A DNA stretch of 38,278 nucleotides. It comes from an uncultured Planctomycetales bacterium. Lineage in GTDB: Bacteria; Omnitrophota; Gorgyraeia; Zapsychrales; Fredricksoniimonadaceae. Location of the stretch: contig CAZABZ010000001.1 of the NCBI GenBank assembly GCA_964483535.1, forward strand, positions 80,284-118,561. The letters run 5' to 3'. Positions 10,981 through 17,623 of the stretch are shown here, in pieces. The notes below the pieces were generated by a model, which saw only the letters and a program-made list of their open reading frames with translations, was not told the origin of the DNA and did no database searches. The translations under genes were made by a program, and so were the position numbers. Position 1 is the stretch's first letter; the number at the start of each line of letters is the position of its first letter.

Positions 10981-11009
10981 AGTATGCCATATATAATAAT
11001 AGTTGTCAA
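10981..11009 (-). promoter_or_regulatory. Candidate sigma70-type promoter for the pilin array (TTGACA-17 nt-CATACT)
   Basis: Hexamers read on the minus strand. The -10 is weak (4 of 6). It would give a leader of about 150 nt. Not validated. Confidence 0.3.
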
Positions 11010-11048
11010 CCTCAACAAGCCAAGAATGATGCCCCCCAATTCCTCCCA

Positions 11049-12101
11049 TTAAAGGAGAGGAATTGCTTCAATTTTAACATTTACTAATCTATCCTGTCCG
11101 TCACGTAAATACATCCCATTTAATTTTTCAGCCGCCGCTTGAAGTATGATTTTATTCTCATAACTATTATTAATTAATAACGTTACAACATTTTCGTATT
11201 TATTTGTAGTATCAAATCCCTTTAGATTTAACATATTATCTATAACCCCATTATTATCAATTAGTTGTGGGAAGAATATCGCTTTTAGCCTTTCCTTGGG
11301 ATTTTTTTCACTGCTCTCCACAAATACCCTCCTTTGTAACATAAATCTCCTCTTCGACTCCACTATATTGCTTAATTCTAACAAAATATGGTCTTCTCCA
11401 TCCACTATTGCAATAGAGCCGATTTTAAAACCTTCTTGAGCTTCCATACATGCTTTAAAAAGCCCTTCATCTGAAACTTTATCTACAATGAGAGGTTTTA
11501 CATTATTAATCAACCCGTCTGCCGCTTCCCGAATACACCTCTCCAAAGGTAACGGCAAATCAATGAAAAAACTTTTGTTGTTTTCTAAAACTACTTTAAT
11601 GCCCTTGCTATAGGTCAAATAATAATTCCAATCCGTTGCTTTAATATTCTCCTCTGAGAATATACCTAAATCCCAAAGCGCTGCCTTATAAAAAATGCTC
11701 CCCGCTCTTTCATGCTCAGGCGAAATCTGCACGTCTTCCTTACCCTCATCATCGTAAAGTTTTTTAGTGTCATTGCGAGCGACCACAGGAAGCGTGGCAA
11801 TCTCTTTAGAAAATTGCTTGTCCTCCAATAAAGGGGGGATTAACTTAACCTGGGAAAGACTGGCCTGGATCTGGTTCTTTTTTTCTTGAGGGATTTCGAA
11901 CTTGTTTTTGGGTTTGCGCCCTCGAGGCGTTGTGATGCCTGATTCCTTAAGTACGTCATTGACCGATGATTTAGAAAGATTCAGGCCAAATTTTTGGGAT
12001 GCGGATTCAGCCAATTGTCGGCAGGAAGCAAGCGGGTTACTTTGCCTTTGGCTGATAATAAAATGGACAACTTCTTCCTTTAATTTATATATGACACCCA
12101 T
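11049..12101 (-). CDS. Hypothetical protein with an N-terminal helix-turn-helix; candidate regulator directly upstream of the pilin array
   Basis: Residues about 8-60 (EEVVHFIISQRQSNPLASCRQLAESASQKFGLNLSKSSVNDVLKESGI) resemble transposase- or regulator-type HTH modules. The remaining 290 aa or so are unrecognised. A repeat-element arm is embedded at 11767..11804. Confidence 0.5.
   Translation of the reverse strand: MGVIYKLKEEVVHFIISQRQSNPLASCRQLAESASQKFGLNLSKSSVNDVLKESGITTPRGRKPKNKFEIPQEKKNQIQASLSQVKLIPPLLEDKQFSKEIATLPVVARNDTKKLYDDEGKEDVQISPEHERAGSIFYKAALWDLGIFSEENIKATDWNYYLTYSKGIKVVLENNKSFFIDLPLPLERCIREAADGLINNVKPLIVDKVSDEGLFKACMEAQEGFKIGSIAIVDGEDHILLELSNIVESKRRFMLQRRVFVESSEKNPKERLKAIFFPQLIDNNGVIDNMLNLKGFDTTNKYENVVTLLINNSYENKIILQAAAEKLNGMYLRDGQDRLVNVKIEAIPLL
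11767..11804. repeat. Single arm of the GTGTCATTGCGAG-type repeat family, embedded in frame in the HTH gene
   Basis: GTGTCATTGCGAG (13 nt) is identical to 9340..9352. The element continues as CGACCACAGGAAGCGTGGCAATCTC and encodes EIATLPVVARNDT in the linker after the HTH. Confidence 0.6.
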
Positions 12102-12152
12102 AAAATGTCCAGTTTGGACATTTTATTATAGCATTGCGCTAATTTGCGTCAA
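12102..12152 (-). promoter_or_regulatory. Promoter TTGACG-16 nt-TATAAT, with a perfect palindrome AAAATGTCCA-nnn-TGGACATTTT (12102..12124) filling the space between the -10 and the ATG of the HTH gene
   Basis: -35 at 12152..12147 and -10 at 12130..12125. The 10-bp-arm inverted repeat ends flush against start codon 12101. This is a typical autoregulatory operator layout. Confidence 0.55.
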
Positions 12153-12183
12153 TAGAATGGATGTTAAAAGAGGTTATTTACTA

Positions 12184-12211
12184 TTGCATTAAAATTCTTT
12201 TAATCTAAAAT
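12184..12211 (+). promoter_or_regulatory. Candidate promoter TTGCAT-16 nt-TAAAAT for the divergent membrane-protein gene
   Basis: Hexamers read on the plus strand, 37 nt upstream of ATG 12248. Confidence 0.35.
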
Positions 12212-12247
12212 AATTTTATCAATACTTATTAATGACCATATTTTGTC

Positions 12248-12859
12248 ATGTCCATTAAATTTAACCAAAACGCCGTTAGCAGCATGTCTTCTATCATAAG
12301 CTCAATTGAGAATGACCGTTATGTCTATCACTGGTTTTTAATCCTCATCAGTCTTCCTGAAATTCAGCAAAAAATCTGCGTGCAAAATAAAAAAAAGGAA
12401 GAATATCAGTCCCTCAAGAAAATCCAGATAGCTAAAATCATCATCTATGTGGCCTTGGCCCTAACTATAACCGCTTTCTGCCTGACAAAACAATTTTGGA
12501 TTCTTCTCTTAGGAATTCTCCCTTTAGTCATTCTTGTAAATTTATTCCGAAAGAATCGCAGGCGTGTTGCGGCTATCAGCGAACAATTTCTTTTAGAAAA
12601 CATCCAACCGGATGAGCTTAACCGGCAAACTCTTTATCAAACCTGTGAGCATCTCTCCAAAAAATACAATATCCCTTCCCTGGTTGATATCATCACCTGT
12701 CAGGACTTTATCGGGCGAAAAGTGCTGCTGGGGGCCATTCTCATTCTTATTTTTCTTTTCCCAATTAATGATTGGAAGATATTGATTGTAGTCTTCGTGG
12801 TATTATCAGCAACCGTTGCTATTCTCAATACCTCAATCATACTGCGAAAATTAAAATAA
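12248..12859 (+). CDS. Hypothetical membrane protein (203 aa)
   Basis: Contains hydrophobic blocks (IIIYVALALTITAFCL, FWILLLGILPLVILV, LLGAILILIFLF, ILIVVFVVLSATVAIL). No recognisable family. Convergent with the radical SAM gene across a 3-nt gap. Confidence 0.5.
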   Translation: MSIKFNQNAVSSMSSIISSIENDRYVYHWFLILISLPEIQQKICVQNKKKEEYQSLKKIQIAKIIIYVALALTITAFCLTKQFWILLLGILPLVILVNLFRKNRRRVAAISEQFLLENIQPDELNRQTLYQTCEHLSKKYNIPSLVDIITCQDFIGRKVLLGAILILIFLFPINDWKILIVVFVVLSATVAILNTSIILRKLK

Positions 12860-12862
12860 TCA

Positions 12863-14779
12863 CTAATGATGGGCAAATATAAAAAACCCTCCCAAGTCAA
12901 TAAAACTAATTGCCAACAACACAAGCCCAAGGGAAGACGTTGTCATTAAAAAAAAGATGTTGATCAAAGGGAAAAAGAGGGATACCAGCGTGGAATTCAT
13001 TTTCGAATGACGTACAACAAAATTATGGCAGTTATAATTTCGCCAATTCAGGTTCATAATCCGATTTTGGGTCAGCATGTCCCGATACAACCCTGAACCC
13101 GGCAATGGTGTCAATATGGAAACAGCTGTCGTGTACGGCATAACAGAAAAACAAAATTTCCAAAGCTGGAACAAAGTCTTTAAATTGTCTGAATCAAAAC
13201 CGAAAATAAAATGCCCTTTGATTTTGATCCCTGTATTCTTGACGATTTTAGTATATTCAATATACTTTTGAGCCATCGCTAATTTACCACCCTGATTTTT
13301 TTCCAGTGATTCGCCAAAGATCTCATACCCAAACGCCAATCCGGCACAGCCGCTTTCCCGGGCCAGCTTAAGGGCTTCCTGGTTTTGGGCAATATCAATC
13401 GTACATTCGCTGTGCCATTTAATTTTTAATGGTTTAAGGGCAGCAAAAAGCTCTTTAGCATAACCTGGGTCGGAATAAATGTTATTGTCAATAAATGTAA
13501 CGTCACGATAATAAGGTTTGACCTTTTTAATGAGTTCAACAAAAGAATTAATGGGCTGAAGATGCGCATGCCCATCGTTTAAGGCCGGAATCGTACAAAA
13601 ATGGCATCGAAACTTACACCCACGCATTGTTTCCAAGAATTCTTTAACAATATACGGCGGAGAGTTTAAAAGTTCTTCGTGGACTTTGGAATAATCAGCC
13701 TCAGTCGCAGCCCCCTTATATTGTGATTTAAGTTCCCCATTTTCATAATCACGGATCACTTCCTCCCAAACACCTTCCGCTTGACCGATAACAACGCTAT
13801 CGCAAAACGCTAAAGCTTCATACGGCAAATACGTCACATGGGGACCTCCCATGACCACTTTCGAACCTCTCTTTTTAAACTCTTTAGCAAGTTTGTAAGC
13901 CTCATAGCAGTTAGAAGTAAAACAAGTGATGCAAACAAGGGCATTATTTTTATAATAACGTTCGTGCCAGATGACCTGATCGAATTCACGGAATTTATAA
14001 GTTTTTGGTGACAAAGCTTTCAAGACCACAAAAAAAGGAGGATAGCCGCGCACAAGCCAAAACGCTAAACTATTTAAAACTCCGGCTATCGCTGGCCTAA
14101 TAAGAAAGATCTCTTTTTGACAGCTAAACTTCTCATTAATCTCAGGATAAGCGTCAAGAATATACAAAGAACAAAAAATAAATTCGAAAACATGGATATA
14201 ATTAAGAATAAACGCTGATATGTTTCGCCAATAAAAATTCCCCATATAAATAAAATCTGAAACCCTTGCCAAAATTAATTCCAAAAGACAGGCTGAAATC
14301 ATCACCATTAAAAAACTTAATTTAAACCTAAACCTGCGGTGAGGGACCCCTAACGGACCAATGTATTTTTTATTTATTGTCCATTGAGCCAACACATAGG
14401 CCGTGATAATTCCCAACAGACTAAAATATAAATTCCTCCATATGTGAAACGAAGCAAACAGGACATTCAAAGAAAGATCAACGAGACGTATCATTATAAA
14501 AACAATCAAAAATCCTTGCCAGAGAGCCCTGGCATTCTGACGAACCCGTCGAAATTGAAGCACAAATTCTTCCCCGCTCAAAATCTCAAGGATGCAGCCG
14601 CTGATTCCGCTCATGCAATATATTTTTAGAACGCCAGTAATTAATAAAATAATAATAAAATTAAATCTTAATAAAAATGATAAATTTAATAGGTCAATCA
14701 AGGTAAGGATAAAAATAGGGATAAGTAAAGAATTGAGGATGGACAGCGCTTGATGAAAATTTTGACGTTGGTTTTTCAT
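12863..14779 (-). CDS. B12-binding-domain radical SAM protein fused to an N-terminal polytopic membrane domain, with a C-terminal TM segment
   Basis: CKFRCHFC is a CxxxCxxC radical SAM cluster motif. It is preceded by a cobalamin-binding-type Rossmann segment (ALVCITCFTSNCYEAYKLAKEFKKRGSKVVMGGPHVT...VVIGQAEG). About 230 N-terminal residues form multiple hydrophobic helices. Confidence 0.75.
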   Translation of the reverse strand: MKNQRQNFHQALSILNSLLIPIFILTLIDLLNLSFLLRFNFIIILLITGVLKIYCMSGISGCILEILSGEEFVLQFRRVRQNARALWQGFLIVFIMIRLVDLSLNVLFASFHIWRNLYFSLLGIITAYVLAQWTINKKYIGPLGVPHRRFRFKLSFLMVMISACLLELILARVSDFIYMGNFYWRNISAFILNYIHVFEFIFCSLYILDAYPEINEKFSCQKEIFLIRPAIAGVLNSLAFWLVRGYPPFFVVLKALSPKTYKFREFDQVIWHERYYKNNALVCITCFTSNCYEAYKLAKEFKKRGSKVVMGGPHVTYLPYEALAFCDSVVIGQAEGVWEEVIRDYENGELKSQYKGAATEADYSKVHEELLNSPPYIVKEFLETMRGCKFRCHFCTIPALNDGHAHLQPINSFVELIKKVKPYYRDVTFIDNNIYSDPGYAKELFAALKPLKIKWHSECTIDIAQNQEALKLARESGCAGLAFGYEIFGESLEKNQGGKLAMAQKYIEYTKIVKNTGIKIKGHFIFGFDSDNLKTLFQLWKFCFSVMPYTTAVSILTPLPGSGLYRDMLTQNRIMNLNWRNYNCHNFVVRHSKMNSTLVSLFFPLINIFFLMTTSSLGLVLLAISFIDLGGFFIFAHH

Positions 14780-14796
14780 GTCACTTTGATAAATCT

Positions 14797-14824
14797 ATTA
14801 TAACGCTCGTCTTAGAACAATCAA
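14797..14824 (-). promoter_or_regulatory. Candidate promoter TTGATT-16 nt-TATAAT upstream of the radical SAM gene
   Basis: A perfect -10 hexamer on the minus strand lies 17 nt upstream of ATG 14779. No SD is visible in the short leader. Confidence 0.4.
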
Positions 14825-14844
14825 TGATCTTGCTTGTCCGCCGA

Positions 14845-16848
14845 TTAAAATTTCAGCTTGATTCCGCCTAACATCGTCCTGCCTGGAGCTGAATAATAAA
14901 CCTTGTCTGTGCTTGTTGTGCTCATCACAGTGTAGTCGTTATAGAACTCGTTGAAGAGATTGTCCACACCCACGAATAGCTCCGCCATTTTTAGTTTATA
15001 GGACAACTTAAGATCTGTAATCCAATACTGCTTGTCCCTCGCGGTTTCATTAGTAACGTCATCTATCGCATACTTTTGGCCTGTAAACTTCTCATTAGCG
15101 GTAAATATAAAATGTTTCAAGAACCCTACAGCAACCCCCGCGGTTGCCTGAGTGTTAGGCACCCCTGGTATTGTGCTGTGATTATACGGGCCACCGATAA
15201 AGATAGGATCCTGATAAGTAAAGCTGGTGTTAAACGTCAATTTATCCAACCGGGCCGGCAGCATCTTAAGCAAGTCGGTCTCTTGACTAAACTCAATGCC
15301 TATCCTGCGGGTGTGGCCATAATTGTTGTTGCTTCCAAAGTACACATTATACGGGTCATAGAAAATTTCGTTCTTATTATCCATCCAATACGGGGTTATG
15401 GTCAGAGAGGTAATATCATTCAAATTGTGCTTGATGCCAACCTCATATTGAATACCCGTCTGCTGTTTTAGGTTTGTATTCAACCCGGTGTATGTGCTAT
15501 ACCACTCGTCCGTCGCTAAGAACCGGAATGTTTGTTGCACACTGGCGTGGACATTCGACCCCGGCGCATATTCATACTTCATGCTGGCGCCGCCAACAGG
15601 GGCATTGGCATCCTTAATCGTTTTAAGGTCATTACCTTTATCATTGAACGTATACTGAGCATGCTGGTAGCGATACCCTGCTTCTAAACTCAACTTGTCA
15701 GTGACCCACAAAGTGCTGGTATCATAGGCCCCTAACTCATTCATGGTAACTACCAGATTATCAAAATCCTCTGCCAGGCCTGAACCTCCGCCAAGTATCT
15801 TATTCTGACTATCATAATAATCCACGCCAGCCACCGTCTGAAAATCATGACCGAGAACGACACCCTTATAAACATCCTTGCCTAATATCCCTACTGTTGT
15901 TATATCATACTTCACCGCGGTTGCGCCATAAGGGGCCTCATCAAAATACGCATAAGTGTCCTTATCCCTATACGAAGTATCTAATGATAAATCTCCCAAA
16001 ATCGTCTTATCGTCAACGCCAAGGGAAAACATCTTATCTAAAGTTGATGCGTAATCTTCATTCTGGGGGTATGCTGAGGCTCTCCTGCCTATCGTCGCAA
16101 GATCCTCCGGGGTCAAATCTCCCGGCAGCCCATATTCATCCTGATGCCACACAAGATCAGAATTTACGGTAAGCGCATCGGTAACAGAATAACTAAACTT
16201 GCCGTCGTAATCCTTGGCTAGCATGTTGCTGTTCGCTCTGTACCCATCAGAATCAGCGTACTTCTGATTCATCTGATAAGACAAACCTTTCTGGGAGCCT
16301 CCTACAGACACATCCTCTGTTGATGCGCCATAGCTTCCGCCATCATACTCAACAGCGCCGGATGCGGCTCCACAACCTTTCTTAGTAATAATATTAACAA
16401 CCCCGCCCACCGCATTATCACCATACAAGACTGAGCCGGCACCTCTAATAACCTCAATCCTTTCTATCTCCTCGATGGGGATCTGAGTAAGATCCGGGCC
16501 GGAGATGTCTATGGAATTGACCTTGTGCCCGTCTACAAGAACTAATATATTACTGACTGCGGTATCAGCGAAACCTCGAATATCCGCCTTATCTGTCTTA
16601 ACCTCCCCGTTATTATAAATATGCACTCCCACGCTGCTATCGAGCAACTCACCCACATTTTGAGCGCCGGAATCCTGGATCTCCTGCTGAGAAATAATTG
16701 TTACATCCGACGGGGCCCTTGTCTCTTCAATCAAAGCTCTGTCTGGAGTGATGACTATAGGTTCAAGAGTTGAAACATATTGATTGTCCCCATACGCCCA
16801 TCCTGCAGCTACAACCATCAATAAACTTACCAGTAATACATCCTTCAT
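14845..16848 (-). CDS. TonB-dependent outer-membrane receptor, BtuB-like by context
   Basis: Signal peptide, TonB-box-like EPIVITP, plug-domain motifs (DIRGF, IERIEVIRGAGSVLYG), a long beta-barrel region and a C-terminal aromatic residue (KLKF). A cobalamin riboswitch lies immediately upstream. Confidence 0.85.
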   Translation of the reverse strand: MKDVLLVSLLMVVAAGWAYGDNQYVSTLEPIVITPDRALIEETRAPSDVTIISQQEIQDSGAQNVGELLDSSVGVHIYNNGEVKTDKADIRGFADTAVSNILVLVDGHKVNSIDISGPDLTQIPIEEIERIEVIRGAGSVLYGDNAVGGVVNIITKKGCGAASGAVEYDGGSYGASTEDVSVGGSQKGLSYQMNQKYADSDGYRANSNMLAKDYDGKFSYSVTDALTVNSDLVWHQDEYGLPGDLTPEDLATIGRRASAYPQNEDYASTLDKMFSLGVDDKTILGDLSLDTSYRDKDTYAYFDEAPYGATAVKYDITTVGILGKDVYKGVVLGHDFQTVAGVDYYDSQNKILGGGSGLAEDFDNLVVTMNELGAYDTSTLWVTDKLSLEAGYRYQHAQYTFNDKGNDLKTIKDANAPVGGASMKYEYAPGSNVHASVQQTFRFLATDEWYSTYTGLNTNLKQQTGIQYEVGIKHNLNDITSLTITPYWMDNKNEIFYDPYNVYFGSNNNYGHTRRIGIEFSQETDLLKMLPARLDKLTFNTSFTYQDPIFIGGPYNHSTIPGVPNTQATAGVAVGFLKHFIFTANEKFTGQKYAIDDVTNETARDKQYWITDLKLSYKLKMAELFVGVDNLFNEFYNDYTVMSTTSTDKVYYSAPGRTMLGGIKLKF

Positions 16849-16927: not shown

Positions 16928-16990
16928 CCCGCAACATGTCTCAATATATACGCTTCCTGACTTGTTCTCACGCAGGCATTCAGCTTTTAA

Positions 16991-17075
16991 ATACCGTTAG
17001 GTGTTCGGACTTCCCCCAAGGGAGTTACCGCAGCGGGACTGTTCTCGATTCACACGAGATTTCCCTAACTGGTAT
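16991..17075 (-). promoter_or_regulatory. Cobalamin riboswitch aptamer (compact form with a minimal P6 region)
   Basis: The minus strand reads UUAGGGAAAUCUCGUGUGAAUCGAGAACAGUCCCGCUGCGGUAAC...GGGGGAAGUCCGAACACCUAACGG. This parallels the E. coli btuB leader core (UAGGGAAUCCAGUGCGAAUCUGGAGCUGACGCGCAGCGGUAAGG ... GAAGAC-CUGCCGG B12 box). P1 forms from AUACCAGUUAGG and CCUAACGGUAU. Confidence 0.8.
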
Positions 17076-17083
17076 GTGTTTTT

Positions 17084-17623
17084 TTAAAAAAATCGCGCCA
17101 AAACTGTACCTTGGCTGCGTTTTAATAGCCATTCATAACCAGCGTAAAAGACCAAACTATACACCATAGTGCTGACTAATGTGCTTCTAAAAAAAGGAAT
17201 TGCCAAAATATAACATTGCCGCAACCCATCCATCGTATGCGGATATAAAGTCAGCCACGCACCGCCATTGGTTACAATGAAAAAAATCACGGCCGAGGCA
17301 AAGCTGGAGCCTAACACAGTTAGAAAATTCTTTCTCTTTTTGAGCCAAAGCCCAAAAATACTGATCAACACAATACTTCCCCACGTAAAGAACATCATAC
17401 TATGAAAACCGATAATAAAATCACTGATAACCATCAATGCCAACGGCACAAGCACGGCTTGACGGCCTTTAAGGTACATGCCACCGAATAAAGCCAGACT
17501 TAATACCGGCGTAAAATTAAAGGTATGCACTATAACGCGGGAGAGAATGCCAAAACTAATAATGATTAAGGCCAACATAAATTTTATTATAAATGAATCG
17601 TACGTGAAGTCAACCGCGAACAA
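17084..17623 (-). CDS. Small polytopic membrane protein (179 aa), family uncertain; possibly vitamin-transporter-like
   Basis: About 5-6 hydrophobic helices. The NFTPVLSLALFGG motif recalls an uncharacterised bacterial membrane family, recalled from memory and unverified. It lacks the prepilin-peptidase motifs (no GxGDxK). It starts 7 nt after the DUF192 gene and ends 8 nt before the riboswitch P1. Confidence 0.4.
   Translation of the reverse strand: MFAVDFTYDSFIIKFMLALIIISFGILSRVIVHTFNFTPVLSLALFGGMYLKGRQAVLVPLALMVISDFIIGFHSMMFFTWGSIVLISIFGLWLKKRKNFLTVLGSSFASAVIFFIVTNGGAWLTLYPHTMDGLRQCYILAIPFFRSTLVSTMVYSLVFYAGYEWLLKRSQGTVLARFF

What the first reader, a model, noticed from the sequence alone, without database searches (positions are those of the whole stretch)
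12863..14779. Membrane-embedded B12-binding radical SAM enzyme of unknown substrate, paired with the B12 receptor
The 638-aa protein joins about 230 aa of polytopic membrane domain, a cobalamin-binding Rossmann segment, a radical SAM core (CKFRCHFC) and a final TM helix. Class B (cobalamin-dependent) radical SAM enzymes are generally soluble. Integral-membrane anchoring suggests a lipid or other membrane-embedded or exported substrate. The gene follows the riboswitch-controlled receptor on the same strand but also has a near-consensus promoter of its own (TTGATT-16-TATAAT). Cofactor import and cofactor use are therefore linked but may be separately controlled. A 203-aa membrane protein of unknown family converges on it with a 3-nt gap.
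Basis: partly seen in the sequence, partly recalled or inferred. Interest (0 to 1): 0.6.

Follow-up and report, generated by a model that had tools for sequence, protein, structure and literature searches.

The report
Membrane-built radical SAM enzyme with partner
This gene encodes a radical SAM enzyme built into the cell membrane by eight helices. It almost always sits tail-to-tail with a small four-helix membrane protein. The pair is an uncharacterised, Omnitrophota-restricted module that probably does radical chemistry on something in or crossing the membrane, and its position next to the vitamin-B12 receptor looks incidental.

Summary
ORF 12863..14779(-) is one 638-aa protein with four parts: a 6-helix membrane domain, a B12-binding-type Rossmann domain, a radical SAM core (C388/C392/C395) and a C-terminal transmembrane hairpin. 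It is not a sequencing artefact. There are about 90 clusters of full-length ~640-aa homologues at 50% identity, nearly all labelled Omnitrophota. AlphaFold gives pLDDT 94.6 and pTM 0.91.

The interpretation needs correcting in two places.
- The B12-receptor pairing is not conserved. No cobalamin riboswitch was found in 31 related loci. No receptor homologue lay beside the gene in the 13 species-genome loci, and none recurred across 93 further loci. Three same-family genomes keep the DUF6580 + TonB-receptor pair without this gene.
- The real partner is the convergent 203-aa protein. It lies tail-to-tail with the enzyme in 45 of 53 assessable arrays (median gap 2 nt). It occurs in exactly the same 8 of 301 sampled phylum genomes. 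In one lineage it is fused to the enzyme's N-terminus.

The N-domain weakly resembles the CysZ / choline-transporter-like fold. The catalytic part best matches AprD4, which does not use B12, so cobalamin use is unproven.

Best reading: an inner-membrane two-protein radical SAM machine acting on a membrane-resident substrate that is still unknown. This scan found the same family earlier on other DNA (e1-816936).

The parts
12863..14779 (-). T: 638-aa integral-membrane class-B-type radical SAM protein
   Evidence: ORF; Pfam B12-binding and Radical_SAM; AlphaFold pLDDT 94.6, pTM 0.91; about 90 clusters of full-length homologues at 50% identity.
14117..14779 (-). N-terminal 6-helix membrane domain (aa 1-221). 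No Pfam family. Weak CysZ / choline-transporter-like (CTL) fold resemblance.
   Evidence: Hydropathy. Domain modelled alone: pLDDT 91.1, pTM 0.89. VIA wide: CTL1 7wwb_B Z 9.0 with 213 aligned, CysZ 3tx3_B Z 8.5 with 179 aligned, PNS1 9f63_A Z 8.0 with 202 aligned. ESM Atlas structure hits: BrkB TM 0.65, EI24 TM 0.53. Pfam finds nothing at E <= 10. Positive-inside pattern.
13004..14116 (-). Cytoplasmic catalytic part (aa 222-592): Rossmann (B12-binding-type) domain plus radical SAM TIM barrel with CX3CX2C at C388/C392/C395
   Evidence: VIA second look over model residues from about 220 into the C-terminal helices (ranges end at 624-633): AprD4 6fd2_B Z 30.2 (386 aligned, rmsd 3.5), MgmA 9ccb Z 25.5, CysS 9n1d Z 24.6, TsrM 6wte_B Z 23.3, OxsB 5ul4 Z 22.9.
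12863..13003 (-). C-terminal transmembrane hairpin (aa 593-638; helices 596-614 and 616-637). The turn motif is conserved (F610, T613, T614, S615, G618). The range includes the stop codon.
12248..12859 (+). c0: 203-aa four-helix membrane protein, the conserved convergent partner of T. It has two cytoplasmic segments with conserved motifs. No Pfam family above the gathering score (one sub-threshold BatA hit, 18.1 bits against 25.9).
   Evidence: Adjacent and convergent in 13 of 13 species-genome loci and in 45 of 53 assessable arrays. Found in the same 8 of 301 genomes as T. Fused to T in L091. Alignment A2. Topology. Pfam. Only Omnitrophota hypothetical proteins as homologues.
14797..14824 (-). 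Promoter-like TTGATT-16-TATAAT in the 65-nt spacer between the receptor gene and T
   Evidence: 10 of 12 positions, but promoter-like hits are not enriched in the region (20 against 14 +/- 4). Sequence read.
14845..16848 (-). TonB-dependent receptor. A neighbour in this genome only, not part of the conserved module.
   Evidence: Pfam Plug and TonB_dep_Rec_b-barrel. TIGR01779 TonB-B12 132.7 bits, below its 599.7 cut-off. Orthologues in same-family genomes lack T downstream.
16979..17088 (-). Cobalamin riboswitch upstream of the receptor; the only one found in the genome
   Evidence: RF00174, 36.6 bits.

Best explanation
T and the convergent 203-aa protein c0 form a two-protein inner-membrane machine.

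Arrangement. T is anchored by a 6-helix N-domain and a C-terminal helical hairpin. c0 adds four more helices and two conserved cytoplasmic segments. The Rossmann + radical SAM catalytic domain sits on the cytoplasmic face, directly against the membrane domains.

Chemistry (inferred from the superfamily). The [4Fe-4S] cluster bound by C388/C392/C395 cleaves SAM reductively to a 5'-deoxyadenosyl radical. That radical abstracts a hydrogen from an unactivated carbon of a substrate that lives in the membrane, most likely a lipid-like or other housekeeping hydrophobic molecule. The substrate would be presented at the cytoplasmic leaflet by the membrane domains. If cobalamin is bound, the outcome is most likely C-methylation through methylcobalamin, as in class B methylases. 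Otherwise it would be a B12-independent rearrangement, cyclisation or dehydration.

What is shown: the architecture, the topology pattern, the conserved partnership and the natural fusion, the class-B fold, and the restriction to Omnitrophota.

What is inferred: physical complex formation, the membrane-resident substrate, the reaction type and the cofactor.

Adjacency to the riboswitch-controlled B12 receptor is a lineage-specific accident of gene order, not part of the system.
For: Architecture and topology:
- One ORF with a confident single-chain model (pLDDT 94.6, pTM 0.91), implying a fixed packing of membrane and catalytic parts.
- K+R counts average 2.1-4.6 in the N-terminus and in loops 63-85, 134-153 and 210-222, against 0.4-0.8 in the alternate loops.
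- The conserved N-domain residues (G58, G61, N82, W87, K138, Y139) lie at the cytoplasmic face.

Partnership with c0:
- Convergent c0 in 13 of 13 loci from species genomes.
- Convergent c0 in 45 of 53 assessable arrays; median gap 2 nt, and 25 of 51 gaps within +/-10 nt.
- 0 of 24 for paralogues that lack the N-domain.
- c0 and full-length T occur in the same 8 of 301 sampled phylum genomes.
- Natural c0-T fusions of 847 and 865 aa in L091, with the c0 profile at aa 21-212 (E 4e-34) and the T profile at 226-855. P0182 and P0193 (845 and 865 aa; T part at 220-843 and 231-857) have the lengths expected of the same fusion.
- c0 topology is N-in and C-in, so the fusion is topologically consistent.

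Class-B fold: Z 30.2 to 22.9 to AprD4, MgmA, CysS, TsrM and OxsB, from model residue about 220 into the C-terminal helices.

A self-contained two-gene module: no other neighbour recurs in more than 9 of 93 loci. The lack of a dedicated pathway argues for a common cell constituent as substrate. Known lipid-modifying B12-type radical SAM enzymes (GrsA/B, Hgm) are described in bioRxiv 10.1101/2023.10.20.563219.

B12 receptor not part of it.
Against: - No substrate, lipid pathway or product is identified.
- Squalene-hopene cyclase was not found in 5 T-positive genomes. Tes (NF045702) is never above its cut-off in the 8 T-positive genomes. The known radical-SAM-modified lipid classes therefore have no support here.
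- The N-domain resembles transporter folds (CysZ, CTL1) rather than known lipid-binding folds.
- The best structural match is a B12-independent enzyme.
- Membrane domains are poorly conserved (21-23% mean identity against 48-51% for the catalytic domains). They could be mainly anchors.
- No expression data: no RNA run holds the stretch.
- I could not inspect model coordinates, so the path from membrane to active site is not seen.
Confidence: 0.45

Rival explanations
1. Transport-coupled radical chemistry. The N-domain is a CysZ/EI24/CTL-like permease rather than an anchor, and T modifies a small polar or amphipathic molecule as it enters or leaves the cell. c0 would act as a gating or accessory subunit.
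For: - The N-domain modelled alone has three top hits that cover nearly the whole domain, and all three are transporters: CTL1 7wwb_B Z 9.0 (213 aligned), CysZ 3tx3_B Z 8.5 (179 aligned), PNS1 9f63_A Z 8.0 (202 aligned). The next rows align 127 residues or fewer.
- The ESM Atlas structure search independently gives BrkB/YihY (TM 0.65) and EI24, which I understand to be the Pfam family that includes CysZ (TM 0.53).
- Conserved polar motifs (SGxxG, SGEE, N82, K138-Y139) lie at the cytoplasmic mouth.
Against: - Z of 8-9 is within the range the tool warns can be a common helical arrangement.
- Foldseek finds nothing (best TM 0.27).
- There is no sequence-level match to any transporter family.
- I know of no precedent for a radical SAM enzyme fused to a permease.
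Confidence: 0.2
2. Protein-modifying enzyme. T modifies a membrane protein post-translationally: c0 itself (one of its conserved cytoplasmic segments), or small membrane-inserted proteins such as the Flp/Tad prepilins encoded next to it in this window.
For: - Class B radical SAM enzymes that modify proteins exist. MgmA is the second-best structural match (Z 25.5).
- c0 has a strongly conserved cytoplasmic motif, TLYQI.E.YSKKY.IPSLVD.
- In the window the module lies between a pilin array and the Tad machinery (earlier notes).
- Short paralogues sit beside the TadZ-CpaF gene in 5 loci.
Against: - The T/c0 module is near a TadZ-CpaF gene in only 3 of the loci examined (W, L060, L064). I estimate that is about what chance adjacency would give.
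- A substrate fused to its enzyme (L091) would be unusual.
- The invariant c0 residues (D23, W29, L129) do not point to an obvious target residue.
Confidence: 0.12
3. One reading: cobalamin import and cobalamin use are functionally linked. T would be the main client of the riboswitch-controlled receptor and be co-transcribed with it.
For: - Same strand, with a 65-nt spacer and no terminator-like site between the receptor gene and T.
- It is the only cobalamin riboswitch found in the genome.
- T carries a B12-binding-type domain.
Against: - No cobalamin riboswitch was found in 31 related loci. No receptor homologue lay beside T in the 13 species-genome loci, and none recurred across 93 further loci.
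- Same-family genomes keep DUF6580 + receptor without T.
- A B12-off riboswitch driving a B12-dependent enzyme would lower the enzyme exactly when its cofactor is plentiful (inference from how these riboswitches usually work).
- The genome has at least four other radical SAM matches to this query as possible B12 clients; only the one on C16 was checked for its domains.
Confidence: 0.08
4. Cofactor rival, independent of the substrate question. The Rossmann domain does not bind cobalamin, and the enzyme is an AprD4-like B12-independent radical SAM enzyme (dehydratase, lyase or cyclase type).
For: - AprD4 is the best structural match by about 5 Z units (30.2 against 25.5).
- AprD4 is also the best PDB sequence-profile match (E 1.6e-11).
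- The Pfam B12-binding hit is partial (profile positions 54-120) and only just above its cut-off.
Against: - Identity to AprD4 is only 14%.
- The NCBIfam AprD4 model (NF033070) does not hit T, although it hits the soluble relatives.
- The best NCBIfam hits are to HpnJ, TIGR04013, PhpK and BchE, families regarded as cobalamin-dependent; all are far below their cut-offs.
Confidence: 0.35

Closest known systems
Class B (B12-binding-domain) radical SAM enzymes with solved structures: AprD4 (6fd2), MgmA (9ccb), CysS (9n1d), TsrM (6wte), OxsB (5ul4), TokK (7kdy)
   Same: The two-domain catalytic core is shared: an N-terminal Rossmann-type domain followed by a radical SAM TIM barrel with CX3CX2C. Z is 30.2 to 17.5 from model residue about 220 to the C-terminal helices.
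   Different: The matched chains align only from model residue about 220 onward, so none covers the N-terminal membrane domain; to my knowledge all of these are soluble. T adds a 221-aa six-helix membrane domain, a C-terminal transmembrane hairpin and an obligate membrane partner. Sequence identity is only 11-16%. No NCBIfam equivalog comes near its cut-off (best is HpnJ, 82.5 bits against 577.6).
Lipid-modifying B12-type radical SAM enzymes: GDGT ring synthases GrsA/GrsB, H-GDGT methylase Hgm, hopanoid enzymes HpnP/HpnR/HpnJ
   Same: These are class-B-type radical SAM enzymes that act on membrane lipids. They are often stand-alone genes or small paralogue sets (bioRxiv 10.1101/2023.10.20.563219). 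HpnJ is the top NCBIfam hit for T.
   Different: Scores are far below the family cut-offs. No squalene-hopene cyclase was found in 5 T-positive genomes, and no Tes above cut-off in 8. To my knowledge those enzymes are not polytopic membrane proteins and have no c0-like partner.
HgcAB mercury methylation complex
   Same: It is a precedent for a membrane-associated, SAM-using corrinoid methyl-transfer complex (PMC11588087, as listed). That HgcA is built from a cytoplasmic corrinoid domain joined to a transmembrane domain is from my own knowledge.
   Different: HgcA is not a radical SAM enzyme. Its membrane domain is C-terminal, and its partner HgcB is a soluble ferredoxin. No sequence relation was seen or tested here.
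CysZ / EI24 and choline-transporter-like (CTL1/SLC44, yeast PNS1) membrane folds
   Same: The N-domain modelled alone aligns over almost its full length: Z 8.0-9.0 with 179-213 residues aligned. ESM Atlas structure hits to EI24 and BrkB agree.
   Different: Identity is 6-8%. There is no sequence-profile match, Foldseek finds nothing, and Z lies in the range the tool flags as possibly generic for helical bundles. Function cannot be transferred.
Earlier finding of this scan, e1-816936 (another genome)
   Same: It describes the same family and reaches the same reading: an eight-helix membrane radical SAM enzyme with a tail-to-tail four-helix partner, specific to Omnitrophota.
   Different: It lies on different DNA, beside a trp operon rather than a B12 receptor. 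That itself argues that the flanking context is variable.

Membership tests
Radical SAM superfamily (PF04055) | CX3CX2C motif binding the [4Fe-4S] cluster, within a partial TIM barrel | tested here: met
   Pfam 43.8 bits against a cut-off of 29.5. C388, C392 and C395 are invariant in 80 sequences. Fold matches at Z > 20.
Class B (cobalamin-dependent) radical SAM | N-terminal Rossmann-type cobalamin-binding domain preceding the radical SAM core | tested here: met
   PF02310 33.8 bits against a cut-off of 32.1; the match is partial. Structural alignment begins at residue about 220 and includes the Rossmann domain, for AprD4, MgmA, TsrM, OxsB and CysS.
Class B (cobalamin-dependent) radical SAM | Actually binds and uses cobalamin | not testable with these tools
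   The best match, AprD4, has the same fold but to my knowledge does not bind cobalamin. No co-factor modelling is available here.
HpnJ / BchE / PhpK / TIGR04013 / ladderane rSAM and other NCBIfam equivalogs | Score at or above the curated cut-off | tested here: not met
   Best is HpnJ at 82.5 bits against 577.6. All 15 hits are far below their cut-offs.
Hopanoid-modifying radical SAM enzymes (HpnP/R/J) | The host makes hopanoids (squalene-hopene cyclase present) | tested here: not met
   TIGR01507 was not found in G000 or in 4 other T-positive genomes. G000 is only 84% complete; the other four are 94-96% complete.
GDGT / tetraether-lipid modifying radical SAM enzymes (Grs, Hgm) | The host encodes the tetraether synthase Tes (NF045702) | tested here: not met
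   No hit above the 450-bit cut-off in any of the 8 T-positive genomes. The best is 273 bits, in G151. Mss was not tested because no model was at hand.
CysZ/EI24-type or CTL-type transporter | Shared fold and family sequence signature | tested here: inconclusive
   Fold: Z 8.0-9.0 with near-full coverage and ESM Atlas TM 0.53-0.65. No Pfam or PDB sequence match, and Foldseek is negative.
Known anti-phage defence systems (PADLOC) | A match to a defence-system protein model | tested here: not met
   Only PDC-M51A at 33.6 bits on the Rossmann region of T. Nothing for c0.

The most novel reading that the evidence does not exclude
T-c0 is a new kind of membrane-integral radical SAM machine. A permease-like (CysZ/CTL-type) domain and a dedicated four-helix partner would deliver a membrane lipid, or a molecule in transit across the membrane, to a cytoplasmic radical SAM active site. 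That would be radical C-H chemistry physically coupled to the bilayer or to transport. It has expanded by repeated tandem duplication in Omnitrophota, perhaps producing an as yet unknown class of modified envelope lipids in these ultra-small, possibly predatory bacteria.
Probability: 0.3. Interest if true: 0.8.

Novelty: new variant of a known kind. Interest (0 to 1): 0.58.

Why it matters
Radical SAM enzymes that modify membrane lipids or other hydrophobic molecules are, as far as I know, soluble or peripheral proteins. How they extract substrates from the bilayer is poorly understood.

This is a well-conserved family in which the catalytic domain is hard-wired to eight transmembrane helices and a dedicated membrane partner. 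It therefore offers a tractable system for that question. It may also point to unknown envelope chemistry in Omnitrophota, a widespread uncultured phylum.

The result also corrects the annotation logic. The neighbouring B12 receptor should not be used to infer this enzyme's function. The N-domain and c0 are candidates for new Pfam families.

The strictly convergent, often stop-codon-overlapping gene pair is itself unusual. To my knowledge, conserved gene pairs in bacteria are normally co-directional or divergent.

Tried and rejected
Neighbourhoods were taken from the genome search, the fetch from genomes and the search for related loci instead.
- Sequencing error or split gene: rejected.
- Conserved link to the B12 receptor or riboswitch: rejected.
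- Defence system: only a weak generic PADLOC hit.
- Pfam for the N-domain and the C-terminal tail at E <= 10: nothing. For c0, only sub-threshold hits (BatA 18.1 bits against 25.9).
- ESM Atlas for c0: no usable hit.
- Foldseek against the PDB for the N-domain: nothing, best TM 0.27.
- PDB sequence profile for the N-domain: only cytochrome b561 at E 0.81.
- Hopanoid and Tes links: not supported.
- Tad pilus link for the long form: only 3 loci near a TadZ-CpaF gene.
- Fixed subfamilies by position in tandem arrays: rejected. In a quick tree, with the careful search unfinished, tandem copies are mostly lineage-specific duplicates.
- Expression: no RNA holder was listed for this stretch.
- Literature: four searches found no description of a transmembrane class B radical SAM enzyme or of this family. 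The library does not hold most subscription journals.
- The module's GC dip in the window (0.378 against 0.447 in the flanks) is not seen at other loci, so it is not a general sign of mobility.
Model coordinates could not be inspected.
Full report

Yes. The minus-strand ORF 12863..14779 encodes 638 aa.
- Pfam places a B12-binding domain at residues 281-341 (33.8 bits, cut-off 32.1) and a Radical_SAM domain at 383-536.
- The cluster motif sits in RGCKFRCHFC. C388, C392 and C395 are invariant in an alignment of 80 full-length homologues (A1).
- Kyte-Doolittle windows and an AlphaFold model (pLDDT 94.6, pTM 0.91) show long hydrophobic helices through residues 1-221.
- The C-terminus has two hydrophobic helices (596-614 and 616-637), so the 'final TM helix' is a hairpin.
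- Family-averaged K+R counts alternate. They average 2.1, 3.4, 4.6 and 2.5 in the N-terminus and loops 63-85, 134-153 and 210-222, against 0.4-0.8 in the intervening loops. This fits an N-in, six-helix N-domain with the catalytic domain in the cytoplasm, as a radical SAM enzyme requires.

The neighbours are also as described.
- A TonB-dependent receptor lies at 14845..16848(-).
- A cobalamin riboswitch lies at 16979..17088(-) (RF00174, 36.6 bits). It is the only one found in the genome.
- A 203-aa ORF at 12248..12859(+) ends 3 nt from the enzyme's stop codon.
- The promoter-like TTGATT-16-TATAAT is present at 14824..14797(-), but such matches are not enriched in the region (20 found, 14 +/- 4 expected).

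**2. Not an artefact.**
- A word-indexed search returned 543 homologues. The top 120 are almost all 620-650 aa and cover 97-100% of the query. The names given are Omnitrophota.
- An exhaustive HMMER search gave roughly 90 representatives at the 50% identity level that align from about residue 5 to about residue 625.
- Contigs from three other wetland or peat samples match the pieces they cover with no indel, but none spans the whole gene.

**3. What the catalytic part is.**
- A second-look structural alignment over model residues from about 220 to about 625-633 gives: AprD4 6fd2_B Z 30.2 (386 aligned, rmsd 3.5), MgmA 9ccb Z 25.5, CysS Z 24.6, TsrM Z 23.3, OxsB Z 22.9 and TokK Z 17.5 (Foldseek ranking). 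This is the class B two-domain fold.
- No curated family claims the protein. The best NCBIfam hit is HpnJ at 82.5 bits against a 577.6-bit cut-off.
- The ~440-aa soluble relatives at 33-35% identity also fall below every cut-off.
- The top match by structure, and by PDB sequence profile, is AprD4. To my knowledge AprD4 has the Rossmann domain but does not bind cobalamin. Cobalamin use is therefore plausible but unproven.

**4. The B12-receptor pairing is not conserved.**
- I fetched 13 loci from the 7 other genomes that carry the gene, found in a sample of 301 genomes of the phylum. None has a cobalamin riboswitch. None has a receptor homologue beside the gene.
- Eighteen further loci, including metagenome relatives at 62-72% identity, also lack the riboswitch.
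- In three genomes of the same family, the receptor orthologues (42-45% identity) still follow a DUF6580 gene, as in the window, but no radical SAM gene lies downstream.
- The conserved uptake unit is DUF6580 + receptor. The enzyme's position next to it is specific to this lineage.
- Read-through from the riboswitch-controlled gene is physically possible: the spacer is 65 nt and has no terminator-like site. It would, however, make a putative B12 enzyme go down when B12 is plentiful. This is an inference.

**5. The real partner.**

Clustering the neighbours showed that the ~200-aa convergent protein (c0) is adjacent and convergent in all 13 loci. Where the enzyme is duplicated, the pair is duplicated as a unit. 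Across 107 further loci:
- 45 of 53 assessable long-form arrays end facing a convergent c0. The median gap between stop codons is 2 nt, and 25 of 51 gaps are within +/-10 nt.
- 0 of 24 paralogues that lack the N-domain have c0.
- The eight exceptions include L091, where c0 is fused in frame to the N-terminus of the enzyme. The two fusion genes encode 847 and 865 aa. The c0 profile matches aa 21-212 (E 4e-34) and the enzyme profile matches aa 226-855. The 845- and 865-aa representatives P0182 and P0193 (enzyme part at 220-843 and 231-857) have the lengths expected of the same fusion.
- They also include L087, where a c0-like gene follows on the same strand.

Further points:
- A profile of c0 finds it in exactly the same 8 of 301 genomes as the full-length enzyme.
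- c0 has no Pfam family above the gathering score and no named relatives.
- Its hydropathy and charge pattern give four helices, N-in and C-in. It has two conserved cytoplasmic segments: the N-terminal SI..D..V.RWF motif and the central TLYQI.E.YSKKY.IPSLVD motif. This is compatible with the fusion.
- No other neighbour recurs in more than 9 of 93 loci.
- The enzyme often forms tandem arrays of two or three copies ahead of a single c0. In a quick tree these copies are mostly lineage-specific duplicates.

**6. The membrane domains.**
- The N-domain has no Pfam or PDB sequence match.
- Modelled alone it is confident (pLDDT 91.1, pTM 0.89).
- Foldseek finds nothing.
- An exhaustive structural search puts three transporters on top with near-full coverage: choline transporter-like protein 1 (Z 9.0, 213 aligned), CysZ (Z 8.5, 179 aligned) and yeast PNS1 (Z 8.0, 202 aligned). 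Lower rows align 127 residues or fewer.
- The ESM Atlas structure search independently lists BrkB/YihY (TM 0.65) and EI24 (TM 0.53).
- The tool warns that Z below about 13 can be generic for helical bundles. I treat this as a lead, not a membership.
- The membrane parts evolve faster than the catalytic parts (21-23% against 48-51% mean pairwise identity). The conserved positions cluster at the cytoplasmic face and at the C-terminal hairpin turn.

**7. Function.**

What is shown:
- the architecture and topology pattern;
- the class-B fold;
- an obligate, sometimes fused, membrane partner;
- autonomy of the two-gene module;
- restriction to Omnitrophota, with one MAG labelled Elusimicrobia;
- patchy distribution (8 of 301 sampled genomes; not found in the same-family genomes among them).

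What is inferred:
- The two proteins form an inner-membrane complex.
- The complex presents a membrane-resident substrate to the cytoplasmic radical SAM site.
- Because there is no dedicated pathway around it, the substrate is probably a common envelope constituent.
- The chemistry is probably cobalamin-mediated methylation, or else a B12-independent rearrangement.

Tests of known lipid contexts were negative.
- No squalene-hopene cyclase was found in five carriers.
- No Tes above cut-off was found in all eight carriers.
- Papers report Mss, ElbD and Hbs homologues in some Omnitrophota (PMC11868695; bioRxiv 10.1101/2023.10.20.563219). I could not test co-occurrence with these.

The rivals are set out separately: transport-coupled chemistry, a protein substrate (c0 or pilins), and B12-independence.

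**8. Novelty and prior record.**
- Four literature searches found no description of the family.
- This scan had already met the family on other DNA (e1-816936, beside a trp operon) and reached the same reading. My analysis was done before I saw that note and agrees with it. The differing flanks in the two genomes reinforce the point that context other than c0 is variable.
- I rate it a new variant of a known kind: a class-B-type radical SAM enzyme with an unprecedented integral-membrane build and a dedicated partner. Its substrate is unknown.

**9. Limits.**
- No RNA run holds the stretch.
- Model coordinates could not be inspected.
- c0 was not modelled.
- The tree is the quick version; the careful search did not finish.

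Noticed in passing
L099, L104, L107 (DUF192 - short rSAM - TadZ-CpaF); L108, L110 (short rSAM at the other end of the Tad block): The ~440-470-aa paralogues that lack the N-terminal membrane domain sit directly beside the Tad pilus assembly genes in five loci. In the window the long form lies a few genes from the same DUF192 - TadZ-CpaF block. This could be synteny within one clade or a real link between B12-type radical SAM enzymes and the Tad pilus.
   Followed up: partly
G000:C16:176-1582 (L002): The window's own genome has a 468-aa paralogue (36% identity). It lacks the N-domain but has a hydrophobic C-terminal tail. It is followed by a 314-aa unknown gene and a gene I take to be pheS from its first residues (not scanned). 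C-terminally anchored B12-type radical SAM proteins seem to be a wider Omnitrophota group from which the long form arose.
   Followed up: partly
window 17084-17623 and 14845-16848; L126, L127, L128: DUF6580 followed by the TonB receptor is a conserved pair in same-family genomes (3 of 3 examined). In the window the cobalamin riboswitch lies between the two genes and overlaps the end of DUF6580 by about 5 nt.
   Followed up: partly
window 11000-15000: GC falls to 0.36-0.40 across the HTH (IS630-like) gene, c0 and T, against 0.44-0.50 around them. Eight same-family genomes in the phylum sample lack full-length T and c0. This is compatible with a recent insertion of the block, but other loci show no GC dip.
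   Followed up: partly
L008 8229-8310(-) and L010 8185-8266(-): A c-di-GMP-I-GGC riboswitch (60-63 bits) lies about 0.8 kb upstream of T but on the opposite strand, so it controls a divergent gene rather than T.
   Followed up: no
G205:C8:71600-87600 and G258:C14:85500-101500: Arrays of five or more tandem ~460-480-aa radical SAM genes, one of them a 925-aa double form, match the Tes model NF045702 at 85-121 bits, well below its cut-off. This looks like an expanded family of Tes-like enzymes.
   Followed up: no
L103 5962-7930; L030 2118-4046: Some copies of T are broken into 2-4 ORFs. These are frameshifted copies or pseudogenes, still followed by c0 (L103) or lying inside a tandem array (L030).
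   Followed up: no
L069, L071, L081 (upstream of T): In one clade a CheY-type receiver protein (~125 aa) and a ~308-aa protein precede T on the same strand, and a ~675-aa protein follows c0. This may be lineage-specific regulation.
   Followed up: no
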